A stretch of 11,529 nucleotides of DNA from Chthonomonadales bacterium (GTDB taxonomy: Bacteria > Armatimonadota > Chthonomonadetes > Chthonomonadales > Chthonomonadaceae): contig JBBQPO010000202.1 of the NCBI GenBank assembly GCA_038217285.1, forward strand, positions 1 to 11,529, written 5' to 3'. The notes beneath the pieces are model-generated. The model did not search any database. It worked only from the letters and a program-made list of their open reading frames with translations, and was not told where the DNA came from. A program made the translations under genes and the position numbers. This document shows, piece after piece, positions 2,288-11,529 of the stretch (position 1 is its first letter; every line of letters begins with the position of its first letter).

Positions 2288-2671
2288 ATGAATCCACAGG
2301 ATCGGAATCCATTGGCGAACGAACGTCCAGACGTGGTCGCGATGTTCCGCGCGTTGGGAGATCCGACGCGGCTGCACATCTTCGAGTTTTTACGTTCGTG
2401 CTGCTGTCCGGTAGCCGTCGAGGAGTCCGGCGCCGTGCGGCCTGTCACCGGACCGACCGTCGGCGAGGTCTGCTGTCATGTGACAGGCGCCGAACAGATC
2501 AACTCGAAAATCTCGCATCACTTGAAGGAGCTGCGTCTGGCCGGTCTCATCACGGTCGAGCGGCGCGGCAAGAACATGATCTGCGGCGTGAACCGCGAAG
2601 CCGTCGCAGCGCTGGCCTCGTACCTGGCCCGCGAGATCTCGGACAACACAGAGAGCGGCTCTTGCTGCTGA
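2288..2671 (+). CDS. arsR: ArsR/SmtB family metalloregulator, Cys-rich
   Basis: FRALGDPTRLHIFEFL...TVGEVCC...ISHHLKELRLAGLITVERRGK winged-HTH signature. First gene of the ars operon. Confidence 0.92.
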   Translation: MNPQDRNPLANERPDVVAMFRALGDPTRLHIFEFLRSCCCPVAVEESGAVRPVTGPTVGEVCCHVTGAEQINSKISHHLKELRLAGLITVERRGKNMICGVNREAVAALASYLAREISDNTESGSCC

Positions 2672-2692
2672 CACATACGGGAGAAAATAGTA

Positions 2693-3577
2693 ATGGCAGA
2701 AACAGTCAAGCTTACGGATAGAAACGATGTACGCGATCTGGTACGCGAAAAGTACGGTGCAGCGGCCCTGACGGTCTTGAACGGCGAAGGCGCGGCGTGC
2801 TGTGGCGGCAATACGGGAGGCGGCAACGATGCGTGCTGTGGCGGCGACACTATCACAGGCGGTCTGTATGACGATGTAGAAGCCGCAAGCATCCCCGAGG
2901 CGGCGCTGCTGGCCTCCCTCGGATGCGGCAATCCTACAGCGCTGGCAGCGCTCAAGGGGGGCGAAGTCGTGCTCGATCTCGGTAGCGGGGGCGGTATCGA
3001 CGTGCTGCTCTCGGCAAGGCGGGTGGGCCCCACCGGATTTGCCTATGGTCTGGATATGACCGATGCCATGCTCGCGCTCGCCGAAAAGAACAAAGCGGAA
3101 AGCGGCGCGAAGAATGTGGCGTTCCTGAAAGGGCATATCGAAGAGGTACCCCTTCCCGACAACGCGGTCGATGTCATTATCTCCAACTGCGTGATCAACC
3201 TCTCTGCCGACAAAGACGCCGTCCTGCGCGAAGCCTTCCGCGTCCTGAAACCCGGCGGACGGTTTGCCGTCTCGGATGTGGTCGTGGAGGGGGAGCTTCC
3301 TCCGGCCGTGCGTGCCGATATGGAGGCTTATGTCGGCTGCGTGGCCGGTGCGCTGGAAGTGAACGACTATCTCGCCCGGCTCGCCAGGGCCGGCTTTGTA
3401 GACGCCTCGATCGAGCCGACCCGCCGCTATACCTTCGCAGACCTGGAAGAAGCAACCTGCTGCTCTCCCGAGGTGGCCGCACTGCCTGCGGAGGAAAAAG
3501 CCGCGCTCGATGGCCGCGTTATGGGAGCTTTCATCCGTGCCGTGAAGCCGGCGGCCTCCTGCTGCGAGCCGGCGTGA
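2693..3577 (+). CDS. arsM: Arsenite S-adenosylmethionine methyltransferase (Cys type)
   Basis: Contains SLGCGNP, VLDLGSGGGID, ISNCVINL, VLKPGGRFAVSD and YVGCVAGA, the canonical ArsM Cys motifs. RBS GGGAG. Confidence 0.95.
   Translation: MAETVKLTDRNDVRDLVREKYGAAALTVLNGEGAACCGGNTGGGNDACCGGDTITGGLYDDVEAASIPEAALLASLGCGNPTALAALKGGEVVLDLGSGGGIDVLLSARRVGPTGFAYGLDMTDAMLALAEKNKAESGAKNVAFLKGHIEEVPLPDNAVDVIISNCVINLSADKDAVLREAFRVLKPGGRFAVSDVVVEGELPPAVRADMEAYVGCVAGALEVNDYLARLARAGFVDASIEPTRRYTFADLEEATCCSPEVAALPAEEKAALDGRVMGAFIRAVKPAASCCEPA
2795..2845 (+). repeat. 15-bp direct repeat within arsM encoding ACCGG twice
   Basis: GCGTGCTGTGGCGGC at 2795..2809 and 2831..2845. Confidence 0.85.
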
Positions 3578-4341
3578 AGCCCTTCCTCGAAGCGAAGAGG
3601 GTTCCTGTGGACGACGGCATGATGCGCCGCTATACGGCGGAGTTTGTCGGCACATTCGGCATCGTGTTCGCTCCTGTGGCGCTCTCCGCCACAGGCAGCC
3701 TGCACGGCAGCGAAAGCGGACTGATGGCGGCCGCCTGGGTTTCTGGGCTCGCCGTGCTCGCGATGATCTACGCGCTCGGTCCTATCTCTGCGGCCCATTT
3801 CAACCCGGCCGTGACTCTGGGTTTCGCGCTCGCGGGGCGGTTCCCGTGGCGCTACGTTGTGCCCTACTGGATCGCGGAGTTCCTCGGCGGCATCGCTGCA
3901 GCGGCCCTGGCAGCCCTGCTCTTCGGCGGTGGGCATGGGGTCCATATTCCCGCCAACGGCCTGCTTGTTCGCGCCGTGGCGGTCGAGGCCGTGCTGACCT
4001 TCTTCCTGATGCTGGTCGTCATCGCGGTTGCGACCGATAAGCGGGCGAACGGCGCGATCCCCGGTCTCGCCATCGGGCTCACCGTCGTCTTCGACGTCCT
4101 GATCGGCGGTCCGGTCACGGGCGGCTCGATGAACCCGGCGCGCTCCCTTGGCCCCGCCCTTTTCGGCGGCCCAGCCGCGCTTGCCGTCTACTGGGTCTAC
4201 GTCGTCGGTCCTGTCCTGGGAGCGGTAGTGGCAGCCTGGCTCTACGAGCACATTCGTGGCGGCGAGCACCACGCACAGGGCGCGCCAAACGACATTTACG
4301 CAGCGCTGCAAGAGATCGAAGAGAAGGCCCACGAGGCGTAA
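3574..4341 (+). CDS. MIP family aquaporin/aquaglyceroporin, probable arsenical channel
   Basis: AEFVGTF, AHFNPAVT and GGSMNPARS (two NPA motifs) with hydrophobic helices. GTGA overlap with the arsM stop; the start could instead be 3607 or 3619. Confidence 0.93.
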   Translation: MKPFLEAKRVPVDDGMMRRYTAEFVGTFGIVFAPVALSATGSLHGSESGLMAAAWVSGLAVLAMIYALGPISAAHFNPAVTLGFALAGRFPWRYVVPYWIAEFLGGIAAAALAALLFGGGHGVHIPANGLLVRAVAVEAVLTFFLMLVVIAVATDKRANGAIPGLAIGLTVVFDVLIGGPVTGGSMNPARSLGPALFGGPAALAVYWVYVVGPVLGAVVAAWLYEHIRGGEHHAQGAPNDIYAALQEIEEKAHEA

Positions 4342-4374: not shown

Positions 4375-4829
4375 ATGGCAACACGCATCGCCATTTTTTC
4401 GGACATCCACGCCAACCTACCTGCCATGGAGGTTACAGCCCGGCATATTCAGCAGGGCGGCTATGACGGCGTCTACTGTCTCGGCGATGTGGGCGGATAC
4501 GCGGCGCAACCAAACGAGGTTCAACAGCTCCTTATGGGAATGGGCTGCCCGACCGTGATGGGCAACTACGACGAAAGCGTTGGGTTCGAGAAAGACGACT
4601 GTGGCTGCCTCTACATCAAGCCCTTCGACATCGAGATGAGCAATATCTCGTTTCTCTGGACCCGCGCGCAGGCTACTGTGTCCTGACGCTCGACGGTCAG
4701 AATGTCAGCGCCGAGCAGGTCCGCCTGCCCTACCCGGTTGAGACCGCCTGCGAACGCCTGCTCGCGGCCGGCCTTCCCACCTACTTCGCCGACTATCTCC
4801 GAAAAGCCGGCAACGTTACACCAGCCTGA
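4375..4829 (+). pseudogene. Calcineurin-like metallophosphoesterase with internal deletion and frameshift
   Basis: The N-terminal part (4375..4670) has SDIHAN, CLGDVGGY and MGNYD. A different frame at 4659..4829 reads DPRAGYCVLTLDGQNVSAEQVRLPYPVETACERLLAAGLPTYFADYLRKAGNVTPA*, the typical family C-terminus. The middle HGSP, GHTH and GSVG motifs are missing. Confidence 0.85.
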
Positions 4830-4951: not shown

Positions 4952-6739
4952 CTACGGAACGCGGGGGACGGAGAGATACGTCGTGTAACTTTCGGCCTTC
5001 ACCTTGTAGAACGGCAGAAAGGTCATCGTATTATGGTGCGTGTGGAACGTAGGAAGCCCGCCGGGGTGCTTTACAACGTCCACACCAGCTTTGCCTCCAG
5101 GAACCGAAACAGGCTTGTCGGAGAGAGCTACCAGGAGCAGTGGCCCGTAGAGCAGCGCCTGGCGGTCCGGCGTCTCGGAGGCGATGGCCTCGGAGTGCAG
5201 CGCCATCGGGAACGTGACCTGAAGCGTATCTCCCTCGTGCCATAACCGCTCCACTTCGAGGAACGTCCCCGGCACGGCCTTTACCTGCGTGACTTTGCCT
5301 CTGATTTTAACGGTTACAGGCTTCGCTGTCCAGCCAGGGACGCGCACATGCAGCGCAAAGCGCACAGGCTTTTGGGAATGCACCGTCAGCGTCGTCGTAT
5401 CTGTCTCCGGGTAGAGCGTGGTCTGCTCGACCGTGACAGCCTGCGGCCCCTCCTTCCAGTGCACCTGCGAAGGTGTGAAGAGGTTGACGTAGAGGCCGTG
5501 CGCAGCGTGGAAATAGATGTCGAGCGGATAGTCTGCGGTGATCTGTGCATACGTCCCCGAACAGCAGGGCCAGGCCGCGCCGAAGTAGGCTTTCTTGGTT
5601 CCGGAGCGATAGTTCGAATAGTAGAAGGTCTTGCCGTCCGGCTGCATGGGAAGCGTCGCGAGCATACCGTTGAAGAGGACGCGTTCCATGTTGTCGCCGT
5701 ATTTGGCGTCTCCGGTAAACCGCAGCAGATAGCGGTCGAGGTTGACGTTGGCGTAGGAGCCGCATGGCGTCTCGAAGTGGTTGTCGACGCTCTCGATGGA
5801 TTCTGCGAGCTTCCCCTGCCCCGGTGTCACGAACCGCTCGAGTGGCCCCCATCCGCCCGAAGCGTACATCTGCGTGGTGGTAAGGAACGTCCAGGCGTTC
5901 TCTATCGCCTTGAAGTACTTTTCATCGCCTGTCACTTCATAGGCTTTGGCCGCTGACAACAGGGTGTTGACATGGCTGTAGGCGTGATGGTCCGGTGTAA
6001 ACGCATTGATGCCATTTGCGAAGGGGTCGTAGTACTCCTTGCTGTAGTCGTACTCTTTCGCCATATCGAGATACCGCGGATCTTGCGTAAGCGCATAGCA
6101 GTTGTAGAGATTTTCGGGCAGCGTGTACCATTCGTCTCGTCGGCGCGGCAGGTTCTTCACCGCCCAGTCGGTCATCTGCTTGAGAACGACGAGTCCCTCC
6201 GCATTGCCGGTCAGCGTATAAGCGTCCCGCATCCCGATGCAGTTCTTATCGTAGAGGTAGTTCGGCCACTCCCGGAAGACCTTCTCGGACGAGTAGAAAT
6301 AGCCGTCTGGCGCTAAGGTTTCGTGGAAACCGTGCACCAGTCGGGCGACCTTCTCCTTATACCGCACATCTCCCGTATTGGCGTACATCCGGGCCAGGGC
6401 GGAGACATACTGCCCGAAAGGATGCGCTCCGGCGAAGCCGTCCGGATCGTACCAACCGCCCATCGGTTTGCCGGGCGCGGGAAGTCCGGCGCGTTTGCGG
6501 AAGCCGTTGAGCAGATTGTCCTCCGACAGCGATAGAAAGAAGTCGCGCGCTTCCAGGGCCTGGGTTCCCAGAGGGCCGCCTTTCAGAGTGACGTCCTGAT
6601 AGCCAAAGGGCTGCACGAGGCCCGAAGATCGGTGTGCCTCCAGAGCGACTGCCTTCTGGGCCGGGGCGCTCTGCTGGCAGAAGAGCCCTCCAGCAAGTAC
6701 AAGCAGGGCGCAAAGTCCTACTCCAGTCAACTTCTTCAT
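4952..6739 (-). CDS. Secreted glycoside hydrolase, GH127/GH146 (beta-L-arabinofuranosidase-like, DUF1680), 595 aa
   Basis: Signal peptide, then GGW...GQYVSALA, HAYSHV, YASGG, ETPCGSY, YGDNMER.LFN, WPCCSGT, LYVNLF, QTTLYP, RVPGW and YGPLLL motifs. Confidence 0.88.
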   Translation of the reverse strand: MKKLTGVGLCALLVLAGGLFCQQSAPAQKAVALEAHRSSGLVQPFGYQDVTLKGGPLGTQALEARDFFLSLSEDNLLNGFRKRAGLPAPGKPMGGWYDPDGFAGAHPFGQYVSALARMYANTGDVRYKEKVARLVHGFHETLAPDGYFYSSEKVFREWPNYLYDKNCIGMRDAYTLTGNAEGLVVLKQMTDWAVKNLPRRRDEWYTLPENLYNCYALTQDPRYLDMAKEYDYSKEYYDPFANGINAFTPDHHAYSHVNTLLSAAKAYEVTGDEKYFKAIENAWTFLTTTQMYASGGWGPLERFVTPGQGKLAESIESVDNHFETPCGSYANVNLDRYLLRFTGDAKYGDNMERVLFNGMLATLPMQPDGKTFYYSNYRSGTKKAYFGAAWPCCSGTYAQITADYPLDIYFHAAHGLYVNLFTPSQVHWKEGPQAVTVEQTTLYPETDTTTLTVHSQKPVRFALHVRVPGWTAKPVTVKIRGKVTQVKAVPGTFLEVERLWHEGDTLQVTFPMALHSEAIASETPDRQALLYGPLLLVALSDKPVSVPGGKAGVDVVKHPGGLPTFHTHHNTMTFLPFYKVKAESYTTYLSVPRVP

Positions 6740-7494
6740 CGATTTACTCTCTTTCCGGTGGTCTTACGTGCGACCACTTCCGCAACCATTACTTTTGGGT
6801 CTGTGGTTCTGGCGTTGCGCAATGCGCGAAGCAAGACCACCTCGCCAAACCCGGCGGCCCGAAACTCCTCAAGGAAAGCCCCGCTCTCCTTTGCGCCGGC
6901 AATTCAAGTGAACCAGTCAGCCGCGCTGTTTTGGCTTTCCGCAGGCAAGGGGCCGGTCAAGACAAGCTCCGCCGCATAGACAGATCCCCCTGTTTTGAGA
7001 ACGCGCGACAACTCAGAAAATATCTGCTCCCGGTAGGGATTCAGGTTGAAAATGCCGTTGATGAGGGCGACATCAATACTCGCGTCTTTGATCGGCAACT
7101 GTTCCGCGTCTGTTAGATATACGTTGACATTCGCAGCCCGCATCTCGGCTGCGGCCAGTCGGGCGCGGCCCGCCATCTCCGCACTAAAATCGATGGCGAT
7201 CACCTTGCCCTGCTCTCCGGTGCGTCTGGCCGCAATGAGCGTGTCCAGACCTGCCCCTGCGCCCAGGTCAAGAACGGTCGCTCCTGCCGGTATCCTGGCA
7301 AAGAGACTCACATTCGAGATACCGCAAAATCCTTCTACCGATGTGGCTGGGATCGTATCGAGCAAAGTAGACGGATAGCCTAAATCCTCCGCCAGGGCCC
7401 GTCCGGTGGGAAAAGGCAAATGGCGCGCGGTCTGCTGTGCGATCGAGGAATAGACATCTCTTACTCCGTCGCGGAGTGCGGTTGTGCCGTTCAT
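6736..7494 (-). CDS. ArsM-like class I SAM methyltransferase, probable selenoprotein (Sec at codon 197, TGA 6906..6904), 252 aa
   Basis: ATG 7494 with AGGAAGG RBS. Motifs FPTGRALAEDLGY, VLDLGAGAGLD, IDFSAEM, INGIFNL and VLKTGG. After DWFT-TGA the frame continues IAGAKESGAFLEEFRAAGFGEVVLLRALRNARTTDPKVMVAEVVARKTTGKRVNR*, homologous to the ArsM segment GCVAGALEVNDYLARLARAGF. The terminal TGA overlaps the GH127 ATG (ATGA). Confidence 0.88.
6871..6891 (-). promoter_or_regulatory. Candidate bacterial SECIS element of the methyltransferase
   Basis: The mRNA hairpin AAGGAGAGC-GGG-GCUUUCCUU (9 bp, one G-U) begins after 12 nt 3' of the UGA. The G-containing apical loop is at +22..24. Confidence 0.72.
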
Positions 7495-7565
7495 AAAAAA
7501 CCTTCCTGGCTCTGTCTTGAAGGAAGGATACCGGGCCAGGGTGAATAAAGCAAATACAGATTTAT

Positions 7566-7590: not shown

Positions 7591-8508
7591 ATGACAGAGA
7601 AATACAACCTTTACCCGCTTCATATCTTTCAGCTCGTGGCACGGCATAGCAGCGTCACCGGCGCTGCACAGGAGCTCTGCATCAGTCAACCTGCTGTCTC
7701 GTCTCACCTTAAAGCGCTGGAAGCCAGATACAAAGAGGCGCTTTTTGAGCGGACGCCGCGCGGTATGCTGCTCACGCCTGCCGGTGCGGCGGTCGCCGAG
7801 CACGCGAGCCGCATCTTTGCGCTCCTGGAAGAGATGGAAGCAGTGGTGAACGCCACACGCGGAGAGGTCAAGGGGATTGTGACCATGGCCGCCTCCAGTA
7901 CTCCTGGCGCCTACCTTGTTCCCCGGCTCCTGCGACGCTTTCAGGACCGCTATCCCGACGTGCAAGCGACACTCCTCGTCGGAGACAGCAGGGAGGTGCT
8001 TTCCTGGCTGCGAGATTACCATGCAGCGCTCGGTGTCGTCGGCGAAACGGACATGGAAGACGGACTGATCCGGGAGGAGATCGCGCAGGATGAACTGCGA
8101 CTCATGACAGCGGCGACGGACGATCTGTGTCGGAGGGAAGAGATCAAGGCGGAGCATCTTTACGGGCGTACGCTGTTCCTGCGGGAACCCGGCTCCAGTA
8201 CACGTGCCGGGGCGCAAACGCTCCTGTATGATTGGCAGAAAGACTTTGCACGGATCGTCGAACAGCACAGCATAGAAGCCATCAAGCAACAGGTCATCGC
8301 CGGGCTAGGCGTTGCCGTTCTCTCCTCCTGGGCTACCGAACTTGAAGAAAAGGCGGGTCTGCTCTGCCCTGTCCGGGATACCCGGTTTTGGCAGAGGCGT
8401 AAGTTTTACCTGGTGCGCCGCGCGGATCGCCCACTCCTCGGCGGAGCGGCGGCGCTCTGGGACTGTCTGGCCTCCTGCCCGCGTACATCCGGTGGTAGCC
8501 CTCCCTAG
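7591..8508 (+). CDS. LysR family transcriptional regulator (CysL/YeiE-like)
   Basis: HTH SVTGAAQELCISQPAVSSHLKALE...LFER...LTPAG. The effector domain has ASSTPGAYLVP, GDS and REPGSSTR. RBS TAAGGA. Confidence 0.93.
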   Translation: MTEKYNLYPLHIFQLVARHSSVTGAAQELCISQPAVSSHLKALEARYKEALFERTPRGMLLTPAGAAVAEHASRIFALLEEMEAVVNATRGEVKGIVTMAASSTPGAYLVPRLLRRFQDRYPDVQATLLVGDSREVLSWLRDYHAALGVVGETDMEDGLIREEIAQDELRLMTAATDDLCRREEIKAEHLYGRTLFLREPGSSTRAGAQTLLYDWQKDFARIVEQHSIEAIKQQVIAGLGVAVLSSWATELEEKAGLLCPVRDTRFWQRRKFYLVRRADRPLLGGAAALWDCLASCPRTSGGSPP

Positions 8509-10019: not shown

Positions 10020-11099
10020 GTGAACATCCGCAAGGCCACCACGCTGTACGAGCAGTGGCTCGGCAGCTTTACTCCGTTGATCGCGCCGGACCTGGATTTC
10101 AAACATCAGCAGATGGCGACCGGGGCGTTCCCGTTCTTACGCTCCACCTTCTACCGCTGGATGCAGGTCTGGCCCGACGTCTGCCACGAGTTGGCGACCG
10201 CGCCGACCGTGCTCTCCGTCGGGGATCTGCATGTGGAGAACTTCGGTACCTGGCGCGACCGGGAGGGACGCCTGGTCTGGGGGGTGAACGACTTCGATGA
10301 GACGGCCCACCTGCCCTACACCAACGATCTGGTGCGCCTGACGACCAGCGCCCACCTGGCTATCGAGGCCAACCATCTCTGTGTGACGTGCGTGGCGGCG
10401 GGCGCGGCGATTCTCTCCGGTTACCGCGCCGGTCTGAAGGCGGGCGGGCGGCCCTTCGTTCTCGCGGAAGACCACACATGGCTGCGCAGCATTGCGACCA
10501 GCCACCTGCGGGATCCCGTCGCTTACTGGCAGAAGTTGAACGCCCTGCCGGACGTCAAACTCAATGTCCCGGAAACCGCCTCGAATGCGCTCGAGCACAT
10601 GCTGCCCATCGTGGGAATCCCGTATGTCGTGAAGTCACGCATCGCCGGGCTGGGCAGTCTGGGTCATCCGCGCTATGTGGCTCTCGGCGACTATCAGGGC
10701 GGCAGGTTTGCACGCGAAGCGAAGGCGCTGGTGCCCTCTTCCGCGGTCTGGGCGCGGGATACGATGGACGCACCGGAGATCTTCTATCAGACGATCATTG
10801 ATCGGGCTGTGCGCGCCATAGACCCCACTGTGCAGTTGCAGGGACACTGGATCGTGCGACGACTCGCTCCGGACTGCGCGCGAATCGAGTTGGCCTCGCT
10901 GCCAGAGGAGCGGGCGGAGACGCAACTGCTCTATGCCATGGGTTGGGAAACTGCCAATATCCATCTGGGCACGAAGGGCATCGCGAGAGAGGTGCTGCGG
11001 GATCTGCAGAAGCGCAAAGGCAAATGGCTGGATACGGCGGCGCAGGCGATGGCCAGGGCGACAACGGCGGACTGGGAAGCTTGGAAACGGCAGAAGTAG
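10020..11099 (+). CDS. DUF2252 family protein (kinase-like fold), 359 aa
   Basis: FPFLRSTF, VGDLHVENFG, NDFDE and AGLGSLG motifs. AAAGGA lies upstream of the GTG. Confidence 0.85.
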   Translation: MNIRKATTLYEQWLGSFTPLIAPDLDFKHQQMATGAFPFLRSTFYRWMQVWPDVCHELATAPTVLSVGDLHVENFGTWRDREGRLVWGVNDFDETAHLPYTNDLVRLTTSAHLAIEANHLCVTCVAAGAAILSGYRAGLKAGGRPFVLAEDHTWLRSIATSHLRDPVAYWQKLNALPDVKLNVPETASNALEHMLPIVGIPYVVKSRIAGLGSLGHPRYVALGDYQGGRFAREAKALVPSSAVWARDTMDAPEIFYQTIIDRAVRAIDPTVQLQGHWIVRRLAPDCARIELASLPEERAETQLLYAMGWETANIHLGTKGIAREVLRDLQKRKGKWLDTAAQAMARATTADWEAWKRQK

Positions 11100-11529
11100 C
11101 GGGAGGAGGAGGGCTGTTCTGCACTGGGTTGTTCTGCACGACGACCAGAGCGCGAACCCGCGTGACGGGCCGCGCGTCGCGGTTCACCGCCCGAATCTCC
11201 AGTACGTGCTCGCCCTCCTCCACATTGCGGGTATTCCACAGATAGACGAAGGGCGCGGTGTTCTGCGCGGCGATGAACTTGCCGTCCACCATATAGGTGA
11301 CGGCAGTGATGGGGTCGGGTTCCCCTTCCGGCACCTGTGCGCGTAAGGTGAGTGTCCCCGCGACGACCTTGCGTCCCGCGCTGCGGGCGCGGGCAAGCGC
11401 CCCGGCGGCATACTCCTTCTGCAAGGCAGTCACCTGCACGCGAACGGCTTCCTGGAGCGCGTCTTCGCGCTGCGCCTCCGTCTGTCCGACCTTCGCCGTC
11501 GGCAACGGCAGTCGGACATGGAACACAAA
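10795..11529 (-). CDS. 3' part of a protein with a C-terminal bacterial Ig-like domain (open at the right edge; true end uncertain)
   Basis: VTYMVDGKFIAAQNTAPFVYLWNTRNVEEGEHVLEIRAVN is an Ig-like (Big) domain pattern. The frame is open at 11529, and the first stop is at 10797..10795, inside the DUF2252 gene. Confidence 0.7.
   Translation of the reverse strand, partial: FVFHVRLPLPTAKVGQTEAQREDALQEAVRVQVTALQKEYAAGALARARSAGRKVVAGTLTLRAQVPEGEPDPITAVTYMVDGKFIAAQNTAPFVYLWNTRNVEEGEHVLEIRAVNRDARPVTRVRALVVVQNNPVQNSPPPPATSAVSKLPSPPLSPWPSPAPPYPAICLCASADPAAPLSRCPSCPDGYWQFPNPWHRAVASPPAPLAARPTRFARSPERVVARSSVPATAQWGLWRAQPDQ

What the first reader, a model, noticed from the sequence alone, without database searches (positions are those of the whole stretch)
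6736..7494. Hidden selenocysteine-containing ArsM-like methyltransferase (WFT-U-IAGA)
Seen: the ORF appears to stop at TGA 6906..6904, but the frame continues 55 more sense codons that align with the neighbouring ArsM (YVG-C-VAGALEVNDYLARLARAGF vs WFT-U-IAGAKESGAFLEEFRAAGF). A 9-bp hairpin with a G loop follows the UGA, and the extended ORF ends in an ATGA overlap with the next gene. Known: that Cys is one of the conserved As-binding/catalytic cysteines of ArsM/AS3MT, and bacterial Sec insertion needs a hairpin just 3' of UGA. Inference: this is a Sec-dependent methyltransferase that standard gene callers truncate.
Basis: partly seen in the sequence, partly recalled or inferred. Interest (0 to 1): 0.92.

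Follow-up and report, generated by a model that had tools for sequence, protein, structure and literature searches.

The report
Selenocysteine ArsM-like methyltransferase, cut short by annotation
A methyltransferase gene that looks as if it stops early most likely reads its internal TGA as selenocysteine, at the spot where arsenic methyltransferases carry an arsenic-binding cysteine; enzymes of this kind are already known, but this stand-alone branch is cut short in public databases and lacks the other arsenic-binding cysteines.

Summary
The minus-strand gene 7494..6736 has an in-frame TGA (6906..6904, codon 197), then 55 sense codons, and ends in an ATGA overlap with a GH127 gene. A 9-bp hairpin with a GGG loop starts 12 nt after the TGA and meets the published bacterial SECIS model.

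The TGA aligns with Cys224 of the solved ArsM structure. Of 119 close homologs, 115 end exactly one residue before this column. Of 150 more distant representatives, 43 end there and 81 have Cys there. The 55 downstream residues are conserved in readthrough translations. In a confident model (pLDDT 94.7) they form a helix and the last two strands of the fold.

The Sec reading is therefore well supported, about 0.85. It is not new in kind: Sec-containing arsenite methyltransferases with a UxxG motif have been in print since 2007. The differences are these:
- This branch lacks the Cys72 and Cys174 equivalents.
- It passes no NCBIfam cut-off.
- It is probably paired with a conserved divergent LysR regulator.

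Its substrate is unknown. Homolog DNA, the Sec machinery and selenium incorporation could not be checked.

The parts
6739..7494 (-). Full coding sequence of the selenoprotein methyltransferase (252 codons, Sec at codon 197). The stop TGA follows at 6738..6736.
   Evidence: Translation with TGA=U. Pfam Methyltransf_31, 84 bits. The N-terminus matches homologs. AF2 model pLDDT 94.7, pTM 0.92. The 12 best Foldseek PDB hits are all ArsM/AS3MT.
6904..6906 (-). In-frame TGA, proposed Sec codon (residue 197), in the motif U-I-A-G (UxxG).
   Evidence: It aligns with Cys224 of CmArsM and with the Cys of the window's ArsM. 81 of 150 representatives have Cys here and 43 of 150 end just before it. 115 of 119 close homologs end just before it.
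6871..6891 (-). SECIS-like hairpin: 9-bp stem (6891..6883 with 6879..6871) and GGG loop (6882..6880). There are 12 nt between the TGA and the stem; the loop starts 21 nt after the TGA.
   Evidence: It meets all four constraints of the bSECIS model quoted in PMC13188914 section 5: loop 3-9 nt, stem 4-16 bp, G in the first two loop positions, spacing 16-37 nt, MFE <= -7.5 kcal/mol. There is no Rfam match.
6739..6903 (-). The 55 codons after the Sec codon. They encode a helix (residues 204-213) and the last two beta-strands (216-226, 235-244) of the methyltransferase fold.
   Evidence: AF2 pLDDT is 96-97 in this stretch. The sequence is conserved in the readthrough translations P0005, P0016, P0020, P0122, P0130 and in Cys-form homologs. 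The GC pattern by codon position matches the upstream part.
6736..6739 (-). ATGA overlap: stop of the methyltransferase and start of the GH127 gene.
7501..7507 (-). Shine-Dalgarno-like AGGAAGG, 6 nt before the ATG.
   Evidence: Sequence read.
7591..8508 (+). Divergently transcribed LysR-family regulator, probably a conserved partner of the methyltransferase.
   Evidence: Pfam HTH_1 plus LysR_substrate. The best NCBIfam hit is NF040786, selenium metabolism-associated LysR, at 191.9 bits, below its cut-off of 250. 9 contig lengths are shared between the lists of methyltransferase and LysR homologs, against about 1.7 expected by chance.
4952..6739 (-). GH127-family glycoside hydrolase with an N-terminal signal-like segment, co-oriented and overlapping. 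It is probably co-transcribed.
   Evidence: Pfam PF07944, 187.6 bits, and PF20736, 88.9 bits.

Best explanation
The gene at 7494..6736 (minus strand) encodes a 252-residue SAM-dependent methyltransferase.

How the TGA is read: codon 197 (UGA) is decoded as selenocysteine. This is inferred from the anatomy and was not observed. The hairpin 12 nt downstream acts as the bacterial SECIS that recruits SelB carrying Sec-tRNA(Sec). Without recoding, translation ends after residue 196 and the product lacks the last helix and the last two strands of the fold.

Where the Sec sits: it occupies the position of CmArsM Cys224 (human AS3MT Cys206), one of the two arsenic-binding cysteines needed for every methylation step.

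What is missing: the other arsenic ligands, the Cys72 and Cys174 equivalents, are absent across this whole branch. The selenolate is therefore the only soft ligand at the substrate site. The most likely chemistry is that a metalloid or chalcogen substrate is held by a single Se-X bond next to the SAM methyl group and is methylated there. The substrate is unknown.

Regulation: the gene is probably controlled by the divergent LysR regulator and co-transcribed with the GH127 gene.

What is shown: the Cys/Sec column, the truncation pattern in homologs, conservation of the downstream peptide, the fold, and the hairpin geometry. What is inferred: actual Sec insertion, the role of the hairpin, the substrate and the regulation.
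For: 1. Cys/Sec pair. The TGA aligns with Cys224 of CmArsM in the PDB sequence alignment. 81 of the 150 best cluster representatives carry Cys at the column.
2. Truncation at one column. 115 of 119 non-self close homologs (56-92% identity) and 43 of 150 representatives end within two residues of column 196.
3. Downstream coding. Five readthrough translations at 50-58% identity (P0005, P0016, P0020, P0122, P0130) keep the frame and the sequence for about 47 residues after the column. Cys forms such as P0139 and P0138 align over query residues 7-244. GC by codon position is 0.636/0.491/0.600 downstream against 0.607/0.495/0.633 upstream.
4. Fold. In the AF2 model (pLDDT 94.7) residues 198-244 form a helix and two strands at pLDDT 96-97. 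The 12 best PDB fold matches are all ArsM/AS3MT, TMq 0.63-0.71.
5. Hairpin. It meets the four bSECIS constraints (PMC13188914 section 5). About 2% of the window's TGA sites have one as good.
6. TGA is a normal stop in this window, which argues against genome-wide recoding. The canonical ArsM ends at TGA with its profile matched to position 271 of 272.
7. Precedent. Arsenite methyltransferase with motif UxxG is listed as a selenoprotein family (PMC13188914 table; PMC5029168 table: 39 organisms, 41 proteins; PMC2398784 table). Acidobacteria are listed with 3 selenoprotein families (PMC1794560 Table 2). NCBI names two close homologs as Terriglobales.
8. A motif after the column. The six sequences of the query's branch that are read past the column, including the query itself, all carry G-A-K-E, three residues, then F-L. 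In the window these codons form the stem. None of the 81 Cys forms carries it.
Against: - No DNA of any close homolog was seen, so a TGA at the column in relatives is inferred from truncation only. Covariation in the hairpin could not be tested.
- Three of 119 close homologs show W at the column. Among the 150 representatives there are 3 G, 1 R and 1 V. One G row, P0261, has Cys one residue earlier and is probably misaligned. If these residues are real and not TGA read under other codes, the position tolerates non-nucleophilic residues.
- There is no Rfam match for the hairpin, and its 63-nt context is not unusually stable.
- No selA, selB, selC or selD and no tRNA gene lies in the window, so the host's Sec trait is unknown.
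- The LysR neighbour does not reach the cut-off of the selenium-associated LysR model. Where NCBI names its close homologs, the name is generic LysR.
Confidence: 0.85

Rival explanations
1. The TGA is a true stop. The gene makes a 196-residue protein, or is a decaying pseudogene, and the 165 nt downstream are untranslated spacer before the GH127 gene.
For: This is what gene callers report for the window (P0002) and for 115 of 119 close homologs. An open frame of 55 codons after a stop is not rare by itself in 60% GC DNA.
Against: A pseudogene would not break at the same column in 158 separate non-self database clusters. The downstream peptide is conserved at 50-58% overall identity in readthrough translations and in Cys forms. 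The truncated product would lack a helix and the last two strands of the fold, which are modelled at pLDDT 96-97. The stop column is a functional Cys in relatives.
Confidence: 0.05
2. The UGA is read through, but not as Sec. Either a near-cognate tRNA inserts Trp or another residue, or the host reads TGA as a sense codon throughout (NCBI tables 4 or 25).
For: Three close homologs carry W, and three representatives carry G, at the column in database translations.
Against: TGA ends at least three other genes of the window. One is the canonical ArsM, whose family profile is matched to position 271 of 272. The W rows and two of the three G rows are nested among truncated rows in the tree, and P0148 (G) is sister to a truncated row with support 100. 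This fits the same TGA being translated by a different table in some pipelines. The homologous residue is Cys in 81 of 150 representatives, and a SECIS-like hairpin sits at the expected spacing.
Confidence: 0.06
3. The TGA is an assembly or sequencing error for TGC or TGT, and the protein is an ordinary Cys enzyme.
For: One base separates TGA from TGC or TGT, and Cys forms of the subfamily exist (32 of 150 representatives with Gly at column 147 and Cys at column 197).
Against: The same truncation occurs in 158 non-self cluster representatives from several sources (jgi, lgn, ena, ncbi). In the tree, the 41-row clade that holds the query contains no Cys form.
Confidence: 0.02

Closest known systems
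Sec-containing arsenite S-adenosylmethyltransferase. This is the selenoprotein family listed under PRK11873/NF008823 with motif UxxG and example WP_011987699.1, credited to Fomenko et al. 2007 in the review PMC13188914. It is also counted in PMC5029168 and PMC2398784.
   Same: An ArsM-type SAM methyltransferase domain with Sec in a UxxG motif (here U-I-A-G). This is the column of CmArsM Cys224 and human AS3MT Cys206.
   Different: The window's protein scores 164.3 bits against the NF008823 cut-off of 263 and lacks the Cys72 and Cys174 equivalents. I could not obtain the sequence of the published example, nor the 2007 paper, so I cannot say whether the published family also lacks those cysteines.
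Canonical ArsM/AS3MT: CmArsM (PDB 4FR0, 4FSD, 6CX6), human AS3MT (8XT7), and the window's own ArsM at 2693..3577.
   Same: The fold (TMq 0.63-0.71), the N-terminal ArsM-type segment, the SAM-binding motif, and a Cys224-equivalent nucleophile.
   Different: The Cys72 equivalent is Ile or Val, the Cys174 equivalent is Gly, and no Cys44-type N-terminal cysteine is conserved. At 252 residues it has no C-terminal domain; CmArsM chains are 377-383 residues. According to PMC3877260 (passages read), As(III) needs three thiol ligands and MAs(III) needs two, with Cys174 and Cys224 required for both steps.
Double and triple selenoproteins with an ArsM-like domain: NF041537 (ArsM/AhpD), NF041536 (ArsM/DUF2284) and NF047649 (methyltransferase/UXPK-star), credited to Haft and Tolstoy 2025 in PMC13188914.
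   Same: These are the best NCBIfam matches over the methyltransferase domain (182, 161 and 172 bits), and they share the UxxG Sec motif.
   Different: All scores are far below the cut-offs (510, 575, 460). There is no second domain and no second Sec. The window's canonical ArsM scores about the same against these models (176, 154, 170 bits), so there is no special kinship.

Membership tests
Bacterial selenoprotein gene (Sec-UGA with bSECIS) | In-frame UGA with protein-level conservation on both sides | tested here: met
   Readthrough and Cys-form homologs align over query residues 7-244.
Bacterial selenoprotein gene (Sec-UGA with bSECIS) | Cys in homologs at the UGA column (Cys/Sec pair) | tested here: met
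   81 of 150 representatives have Cys. The column equals CmArsM Cys224.
Bacterial selenoprotein gene (Sec-UGA with bSECIS) | TGA at the same column in homologs from other organisms | tested here: inconclusive
   This is inferred only. 115 of 119 close homologs and 43 of 150 representatives end at the column.
Bacterial selenoprotein gene (Sec-UGA with bSECIS) | [quoted passage not shown] | tested here: met
   GGG loop, 9 bp, 21 nt, -11.3 kcal/mol. The background rate is 6 of 246 TGA sites. The model was read in PMC13188914 section 5.
Bacterial selenoprotein gene (Sec-UGA with bSECIS) | selA, selB, selC and selD present in the genome | not testable with these tools
   Only 11.5 kb is available. 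There is no tRNA in the window.
Bacterial selenoprotein gene (Sec-UGA with bSECIS) | Selenium found in the protein | not testable with these tools
   This needs 75Se labelling or mass spectrometry.
ArsM / AS3MT (NF008823) | Score at or above the curated cut-off | tested here: not met
   164.3 bits against 263. The window's true ArsM scores 338.9.
ArsM / AS3MT (NF008823) | Cys72 equivalent (third As(III) ligand) | tested here: not met
   Ile59 in the query; V, I, L or T in the truncated homologs. The query's Cys57 lies two residues upstream and is Phe in the 92%-identical P0003.
ArsM / AS3MT (NF008823) | Cys174 equivalent (As ligand needed for all steps) | tested here: not met
   Gly147 in the query and in all 159 truncated database proteins, a count that includes the window's own.
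ArsM / AS3MT (NF008823) | Cys224 equivalent | tested here: met
   Present as the TGA codon, read as Sec.
ArsM / AS3MT (NF008823) | Class I SAM methyltransferase fold with the ArsM-type N-terminal segment | tested here: met
ArsM-domain multi-Sec selenoproteins (NF041537, NF041536, NF047649) | Curated cut-off reached, plus a second domain with a further Sec | tested here: not met
   182, 161 and 172 bits against 510, 575 and 460. The protein ends at residue 252 with one Sec. None of 15 subfamily members passes any cut-off.
LysR_Se / NF040786 (for the neighbouring regulator) | Curated cut-off reached | tested here: not met
   191.9 bits against 250, and the next family scores 176.5. Among the 119 listed homologs, those that NCBI names are called generic LysR.

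The most novel reading that the evidence does not exclude
This branch is not an arsenite methyltransferase. It is a one-ligand selenoenzyme in which a single selenolate holds a substrate that has only one free valence, and SAM methylates that substrate. Candidate substrates are dimethylarsenite (giving trimethylarsine), a methylated or persulfide-like selenium or tellurium species, or another soft electrophile. The reasoning follows the ligand count quoted in PMC3877260: As(III) binds three thiols, MAs(III) two, DMAs(III) one. A dedicated, conserved divergent LysR regulator would make the pair a substrate-responsive module that public annotation misses across several phyla.
Probability: 0.15. 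Interest if true: 0.7.

Novelty: new variant of a known kind. Interest (0 to 1): 0.42.

Why it matters
- Annotation. At least 158 non-self database clusters of this branch are recorded as proteins of about 196 residues that lack part of their fold. Where a source names them, it calls them arsenite methyltransferase, SAM-dependent methyltransferase or methyltransferase domain-containing protein. Surveys of arsenic-methylation genes in soil metagenomes may therefore count truncated non-ArsM proteins as ArsM. Surveys of selenoproteins may miss a widespread soil family.
- Biochemistry. An ArsM-type site reduced to a single Sec is a natural test of what one selenolate can do in metalloid or chalcogen methylation.
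- Limits. The principle of Sec at this ArsM cysteine is already in print, so the gain is incremental unless the substrate proves to be new.

Tried and rejected
- Genome scan for relatives. Its hits came in through the generic peptide AIDFSAEM. All 12 loci are unrelated methyltransferases at 29-41% identity, and none is informative at the column. No DNA of true relatives was obtained.
- Search with the C-terminal 60 residues alone. It gave 17 candidates and none scored. This looks like a limit of the word index, because P0005, P0016 and P0020 do contain the region.
The origin of those residues stays open.
- Rfam found no family for the hairpin and nothing else in the window.
- Plasmid searches. 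tblastn found only ArsM-type genes and generic methyltransferases below 40% identity, and blastn found nothing.
- A possible anti-Shine-Dalgarno hairpin in the 5' leader is not more stable than shuffles (z 0.51) and was dropped.
- LysR as a selenium-specific regulator: below the cut-off, and homologs carry generic names. It is kept only as a weak lead.
The 196-aa standard-code product gave clusters with representatives of 198-204 residues, whose commonest phyla include Acidobacteriota, Actinomycetota, Chloroflexota, Thermodesulfobacteriota and Methylomirabilota. These are leads only.
- Papers not held: Fomenko 2007, Haft and Tolstoy 2025, Haft and Gwadz 2023, Kim 2009. They are cited only through the review that lists them.
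- BSepDB paper (PMC13326102): a term search of its main text found no mention of arsenite, methyltransferase or Acidobacteria.
Full report
**What is in the sequence**

The gene lies on the minus strand. Its ATG is at 7494..7492, six bases after an AGGAAGG Shine-Dalgarno-like motif. The frame reaches a TGA at 6906..6904 (codon 197) and runs on for 55 sense codons to a second TGA at 6738..6736. That second TGA overlaps the ATG (6739..6737) of a GH127 glycoside hydrolase gene as ATGA. The database entry for the window's own gene is the 196-residue truncated product (P0002).

**The hairpin**

Twelve nucleotides after the TGA there is a 9-bp stem (6891..6883 with 6879..6871) closed by a GGG loop. 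The loop starts 21 nt after the TGA. The 25-nt stretch folds at -11.3 kcal/mol, z -2.74, and 2 of 200 shuffles fold as well.

This meets all four constraints of the bacterial SECIS model as quoted in section 5 of the review PMC13188914, which I read:
- a loop of 3-9 nt;
- a stem of 4-16 bp with G in the first two loop positions;
- 16-37 nt from the UGA to the loop;
- MFE of -7.5 kcal/mol or lower.

As a control I applied the same rules to all 246 TGA trinucleotides on both strands of the window. Six have a hairpin at least as stable, and two of those six are this same hairpin. Nineteen reach -7.5 kcal/mol.

The hairpin alone is therefore moderate evidence. The 63-nt context is not unusually stable (z 0.18), and Rfam has no match.

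**The column**

A sequence search of the PDB aligns the protein with CmArsM (4FR0 and others, E 5e-17). The TGA codon falls on Cys224, Gly147 on Cys174 and Ile59 on Cys72. BLASTP against the canonical ArsM encoded 3 kb away (2693..3577) puts the TGA opposite the Cys of C-V-A-G-A.

[quoted passage not shown] Cys72 (human Cys61) is the third ligand for As(III).

**Homologs**

| Set | Ends within 2 residues of column 196 | Residue at column 197 | Does not reach the column |
|---|---|---|---|
| 119 non-self proteins among the best 120 (56-92% identity) | 115 | W in 3 | 1 |
| Best 150 cluster representatives | 43 | Cys 81, Gly 3, Arg 1, Val 1, gap 1 | 20 |

All 159 truncated proteins, a count that includes the window's own, have Gly at the Cys174 column and V, I, L, T, A or M at the Cys72 column. 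Forty representatives show the canonical Cys/Cys/Cys pattern. Thirty-two have Gly at column 147 with Cys at column 197.

Cys forms such as P0139, P0138, P0217 and P0181 align with the query over residues 7-244. They share its distinctive N-G-I-(F/Y)-N-L and R-N-A-R-T motifs.

I built a FastTree tree of 149 rows on residues 1-196 only. Sixteen rows were dropped for short coverage, and only 14 of the 120 close homologs were included. Support is SH-like only. The tree shows the following:
- The query sits in a 41-row clade (support 99) with 30 truncated rows, 3 W, 2 G, 1 gap, 5 undetermined and no Cys.
- The canonical clade (44 rows, support 97) holds no truncated row.
- Truncated rows also occur scattered among the Gly147/Cys197 forms, so Sec and Cys have been exchanged several times.

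**Downstream of the TGA**

Five database translations read through the column (P0005, P0016, P0020, P0122, P0130; 50-58% identity). They keep the frame and the sequence for about 47 residues after it. GC by codon position is the same downstream (0.636/0.491/0.600) as upstream (0.607/0.495/0.633).

An AlphaFold2 model built on a 69-row alignment has pLDDT 94.7 and pTM 0.92. Residues 198-244 form a helix and the last two beta-strands at pLDDT 96-97. The 12 best PDB fold matches are all ArsM or AS3MT, TMq 0.63-0.71. A product ending at residue 196 would lack part of the core sheet.

**Results against the Sec reading**

All three can be encoded by codons one base away from TGA. W is also what NCBI table 4 gives for TGA, and G is what table 25 gives.
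- The three W rows come from one source (jgi) and sit on contigs of 1.1-1.5 kb. From memory, metagenome gene callers sometimes choose table 4 on short contigs.
- One of the three G rows, P0261, has a Cys one residue earlier and is probably misaligned.
- Genome-wide recoding in this host is unlikely. TGA ends the canonical ArsM with its profile matched to position 271 of 272, and it also ends two other genes.
- The host's Sec machinery is unknown, and there is no tRNA gene in the window.

**A motif that may reflect the SECIS**

The query and the five readthrough sequences of its branch all carry G-A-K-E, three residues, then F-L after the column. In the window, the K-E and F-L codons form the outer six pairs of the stem. 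None of the 81 Cys forms carries the motif. This fits an RNA constraint on the coding sequence. It could also be plain clade conservation.

**What it is not**

- Against NCBIfam the protein scores 164.3 bits on arsenite methyltransferase NF008823, whose cut-off is 263. The window's true ArsM scores 338.9.
- Its best hits are the ArsM-domain selenoprotein models NF041537, NF047649 and NF041536 (182, 172, 161 bits against cut-offs of 510, 460 and 575). The canonical ArsM scores about the same on these.
- None of 15 tested members of the subfamily, Sec or Cys forms, passes any cut-off.
- It is therefore ArsM-like but not an ArsM, because two of the arsenic ligands are missing.

**Neighbourhood**

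Upstream, an ArsR-ArsM-MIP channel operon (2288..4341) is a typical arsenic module.

The divergent LysR regulator (7591..8508) has NF040786, selenium metabolism-associated LysR, as its best NCBIfam hit. The score is 191.9 bits against a cut-off of 250, and the next family scores 176.5. Where NCBI names its close homologs, the name is generic LysR, from Acidobacteria, Blastocatellia and Chthonomonadales.

Nine 'longest contig' lengths are identical between the methyltransferase hit list and the LysR hit list: 2455, 2737, 2740, 3447, 9268, 10720, 11233, 13127 and 16607. About 1.7 matches are expected by chance. The matches are concentrated among the top hits of both lists.

This is indirect evidence that the gene pair is conserved. 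On the three shortest contigs the two genes would have to be adjacent.

**Taxonomy**

NCBI names two close homologs as Terriglobales. Acidobacteria are listed with 3 selenoprotein families in Table 2 of PMC1794560 (passage read).

**What is already in print**

- The review PMC13188914 (table passages read) lists arsenite methyltransferase (NF008823, motif UxxG, WP_011987699.1, credited to Fomenko et al. 2007) among prokaryotic selenoproteins. It also lists three multi-Sec ArsM-domain families, credited to Haft and Tolstoy 2025.
- PMC5029168 (table passage) counts 41 such selenoproteins in 39 organisms.
- PMC2398784 (table passage) counts 8 in the ocean metagenome.
- The primary papers were not held. 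I therefore cannot say whether the published family has the same cysteine-poor pattern.
- None turned up a description of a stand-alone acidobacterial form, but these searches cover open-access text only.

**Verdict**

This is a genuine selenoprotein gene with probability about 0.85. It is a stand-alone variant of the known ArsM-type UxxG selenoproteins, it is cut short in public annotation, and its single-Sec substrate site argues against ordinary As(III) methylation. The substrate is unknown.

Noticed in passing
window 2288..4341 (+): A canonical arsenic module. It comprises an ArsR-like regulator (2288..2671, cysteine-rich), ArsM (2693..3577, NF008823 at 338.9 bits, above its cut-off) and a MIP/aquaglyceroporin-type channel (3574..4341). 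The channel's GTG start overlaps the ArsM stop as GTGA.
   Followed up: partly
window 4375..4686 (+): A metallophosphoesterase ORF of only 103 residues that matches just the first part of Pfam Metallophos_2 (profile positions 2-63 of 154). After its stop the frame turns into low-complexity sequence rich in R, S and P. It is probably a truncated remnant.
   Followed up: partly
This suggests a conserved divergent gene pair.
   Followed up: partly
window 7501..7526 (-): The Shine-Dalgarno-like AGGAAGG can pair with CCUUCCU about 13 nt upstream, a possible anti-SD hairpin followed by U6 and the AUG. The 60-nt leader is no more stable than shuffles (z 0.51).
   Followed up: yes
window 4952..6739 (-): A GH127-family hydrolase with a signal-like N-terminus, translationally coupled (ATGA) to the methyltransferase. 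This is an unexpected operon partner. Whether the pairing is conserved could not be checked.
   Followed up: no
protein P0065: A 275-residue homolog that follows the family up to about residue 170 and then diverges into unrelated sequence. It looks like a frameshifted copy or an assembly error.
   Followed up: no
window 10020..11099 (+) and 10795..11529 (-): A DUF2252 ORF matches only profile positions 6-120 of 392. It overlaps by about 300 nt a long open-ended ORF on the other strand, so one of the two calls is probably spurious.
   Followed up: no
Atlas clusters: The nearest clusters to the 196-residue product have representatives of 198-204 residues and 50-440 members. Their commonest phyla are Methylomirabilota, Actinomycetota, Acidobacteriota, Chloroflexota and Thermodesulfobacteriota. 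Truncated ArsM-like calls may therefore be widespread well beyond Acidobacteria.
   Followed up: no
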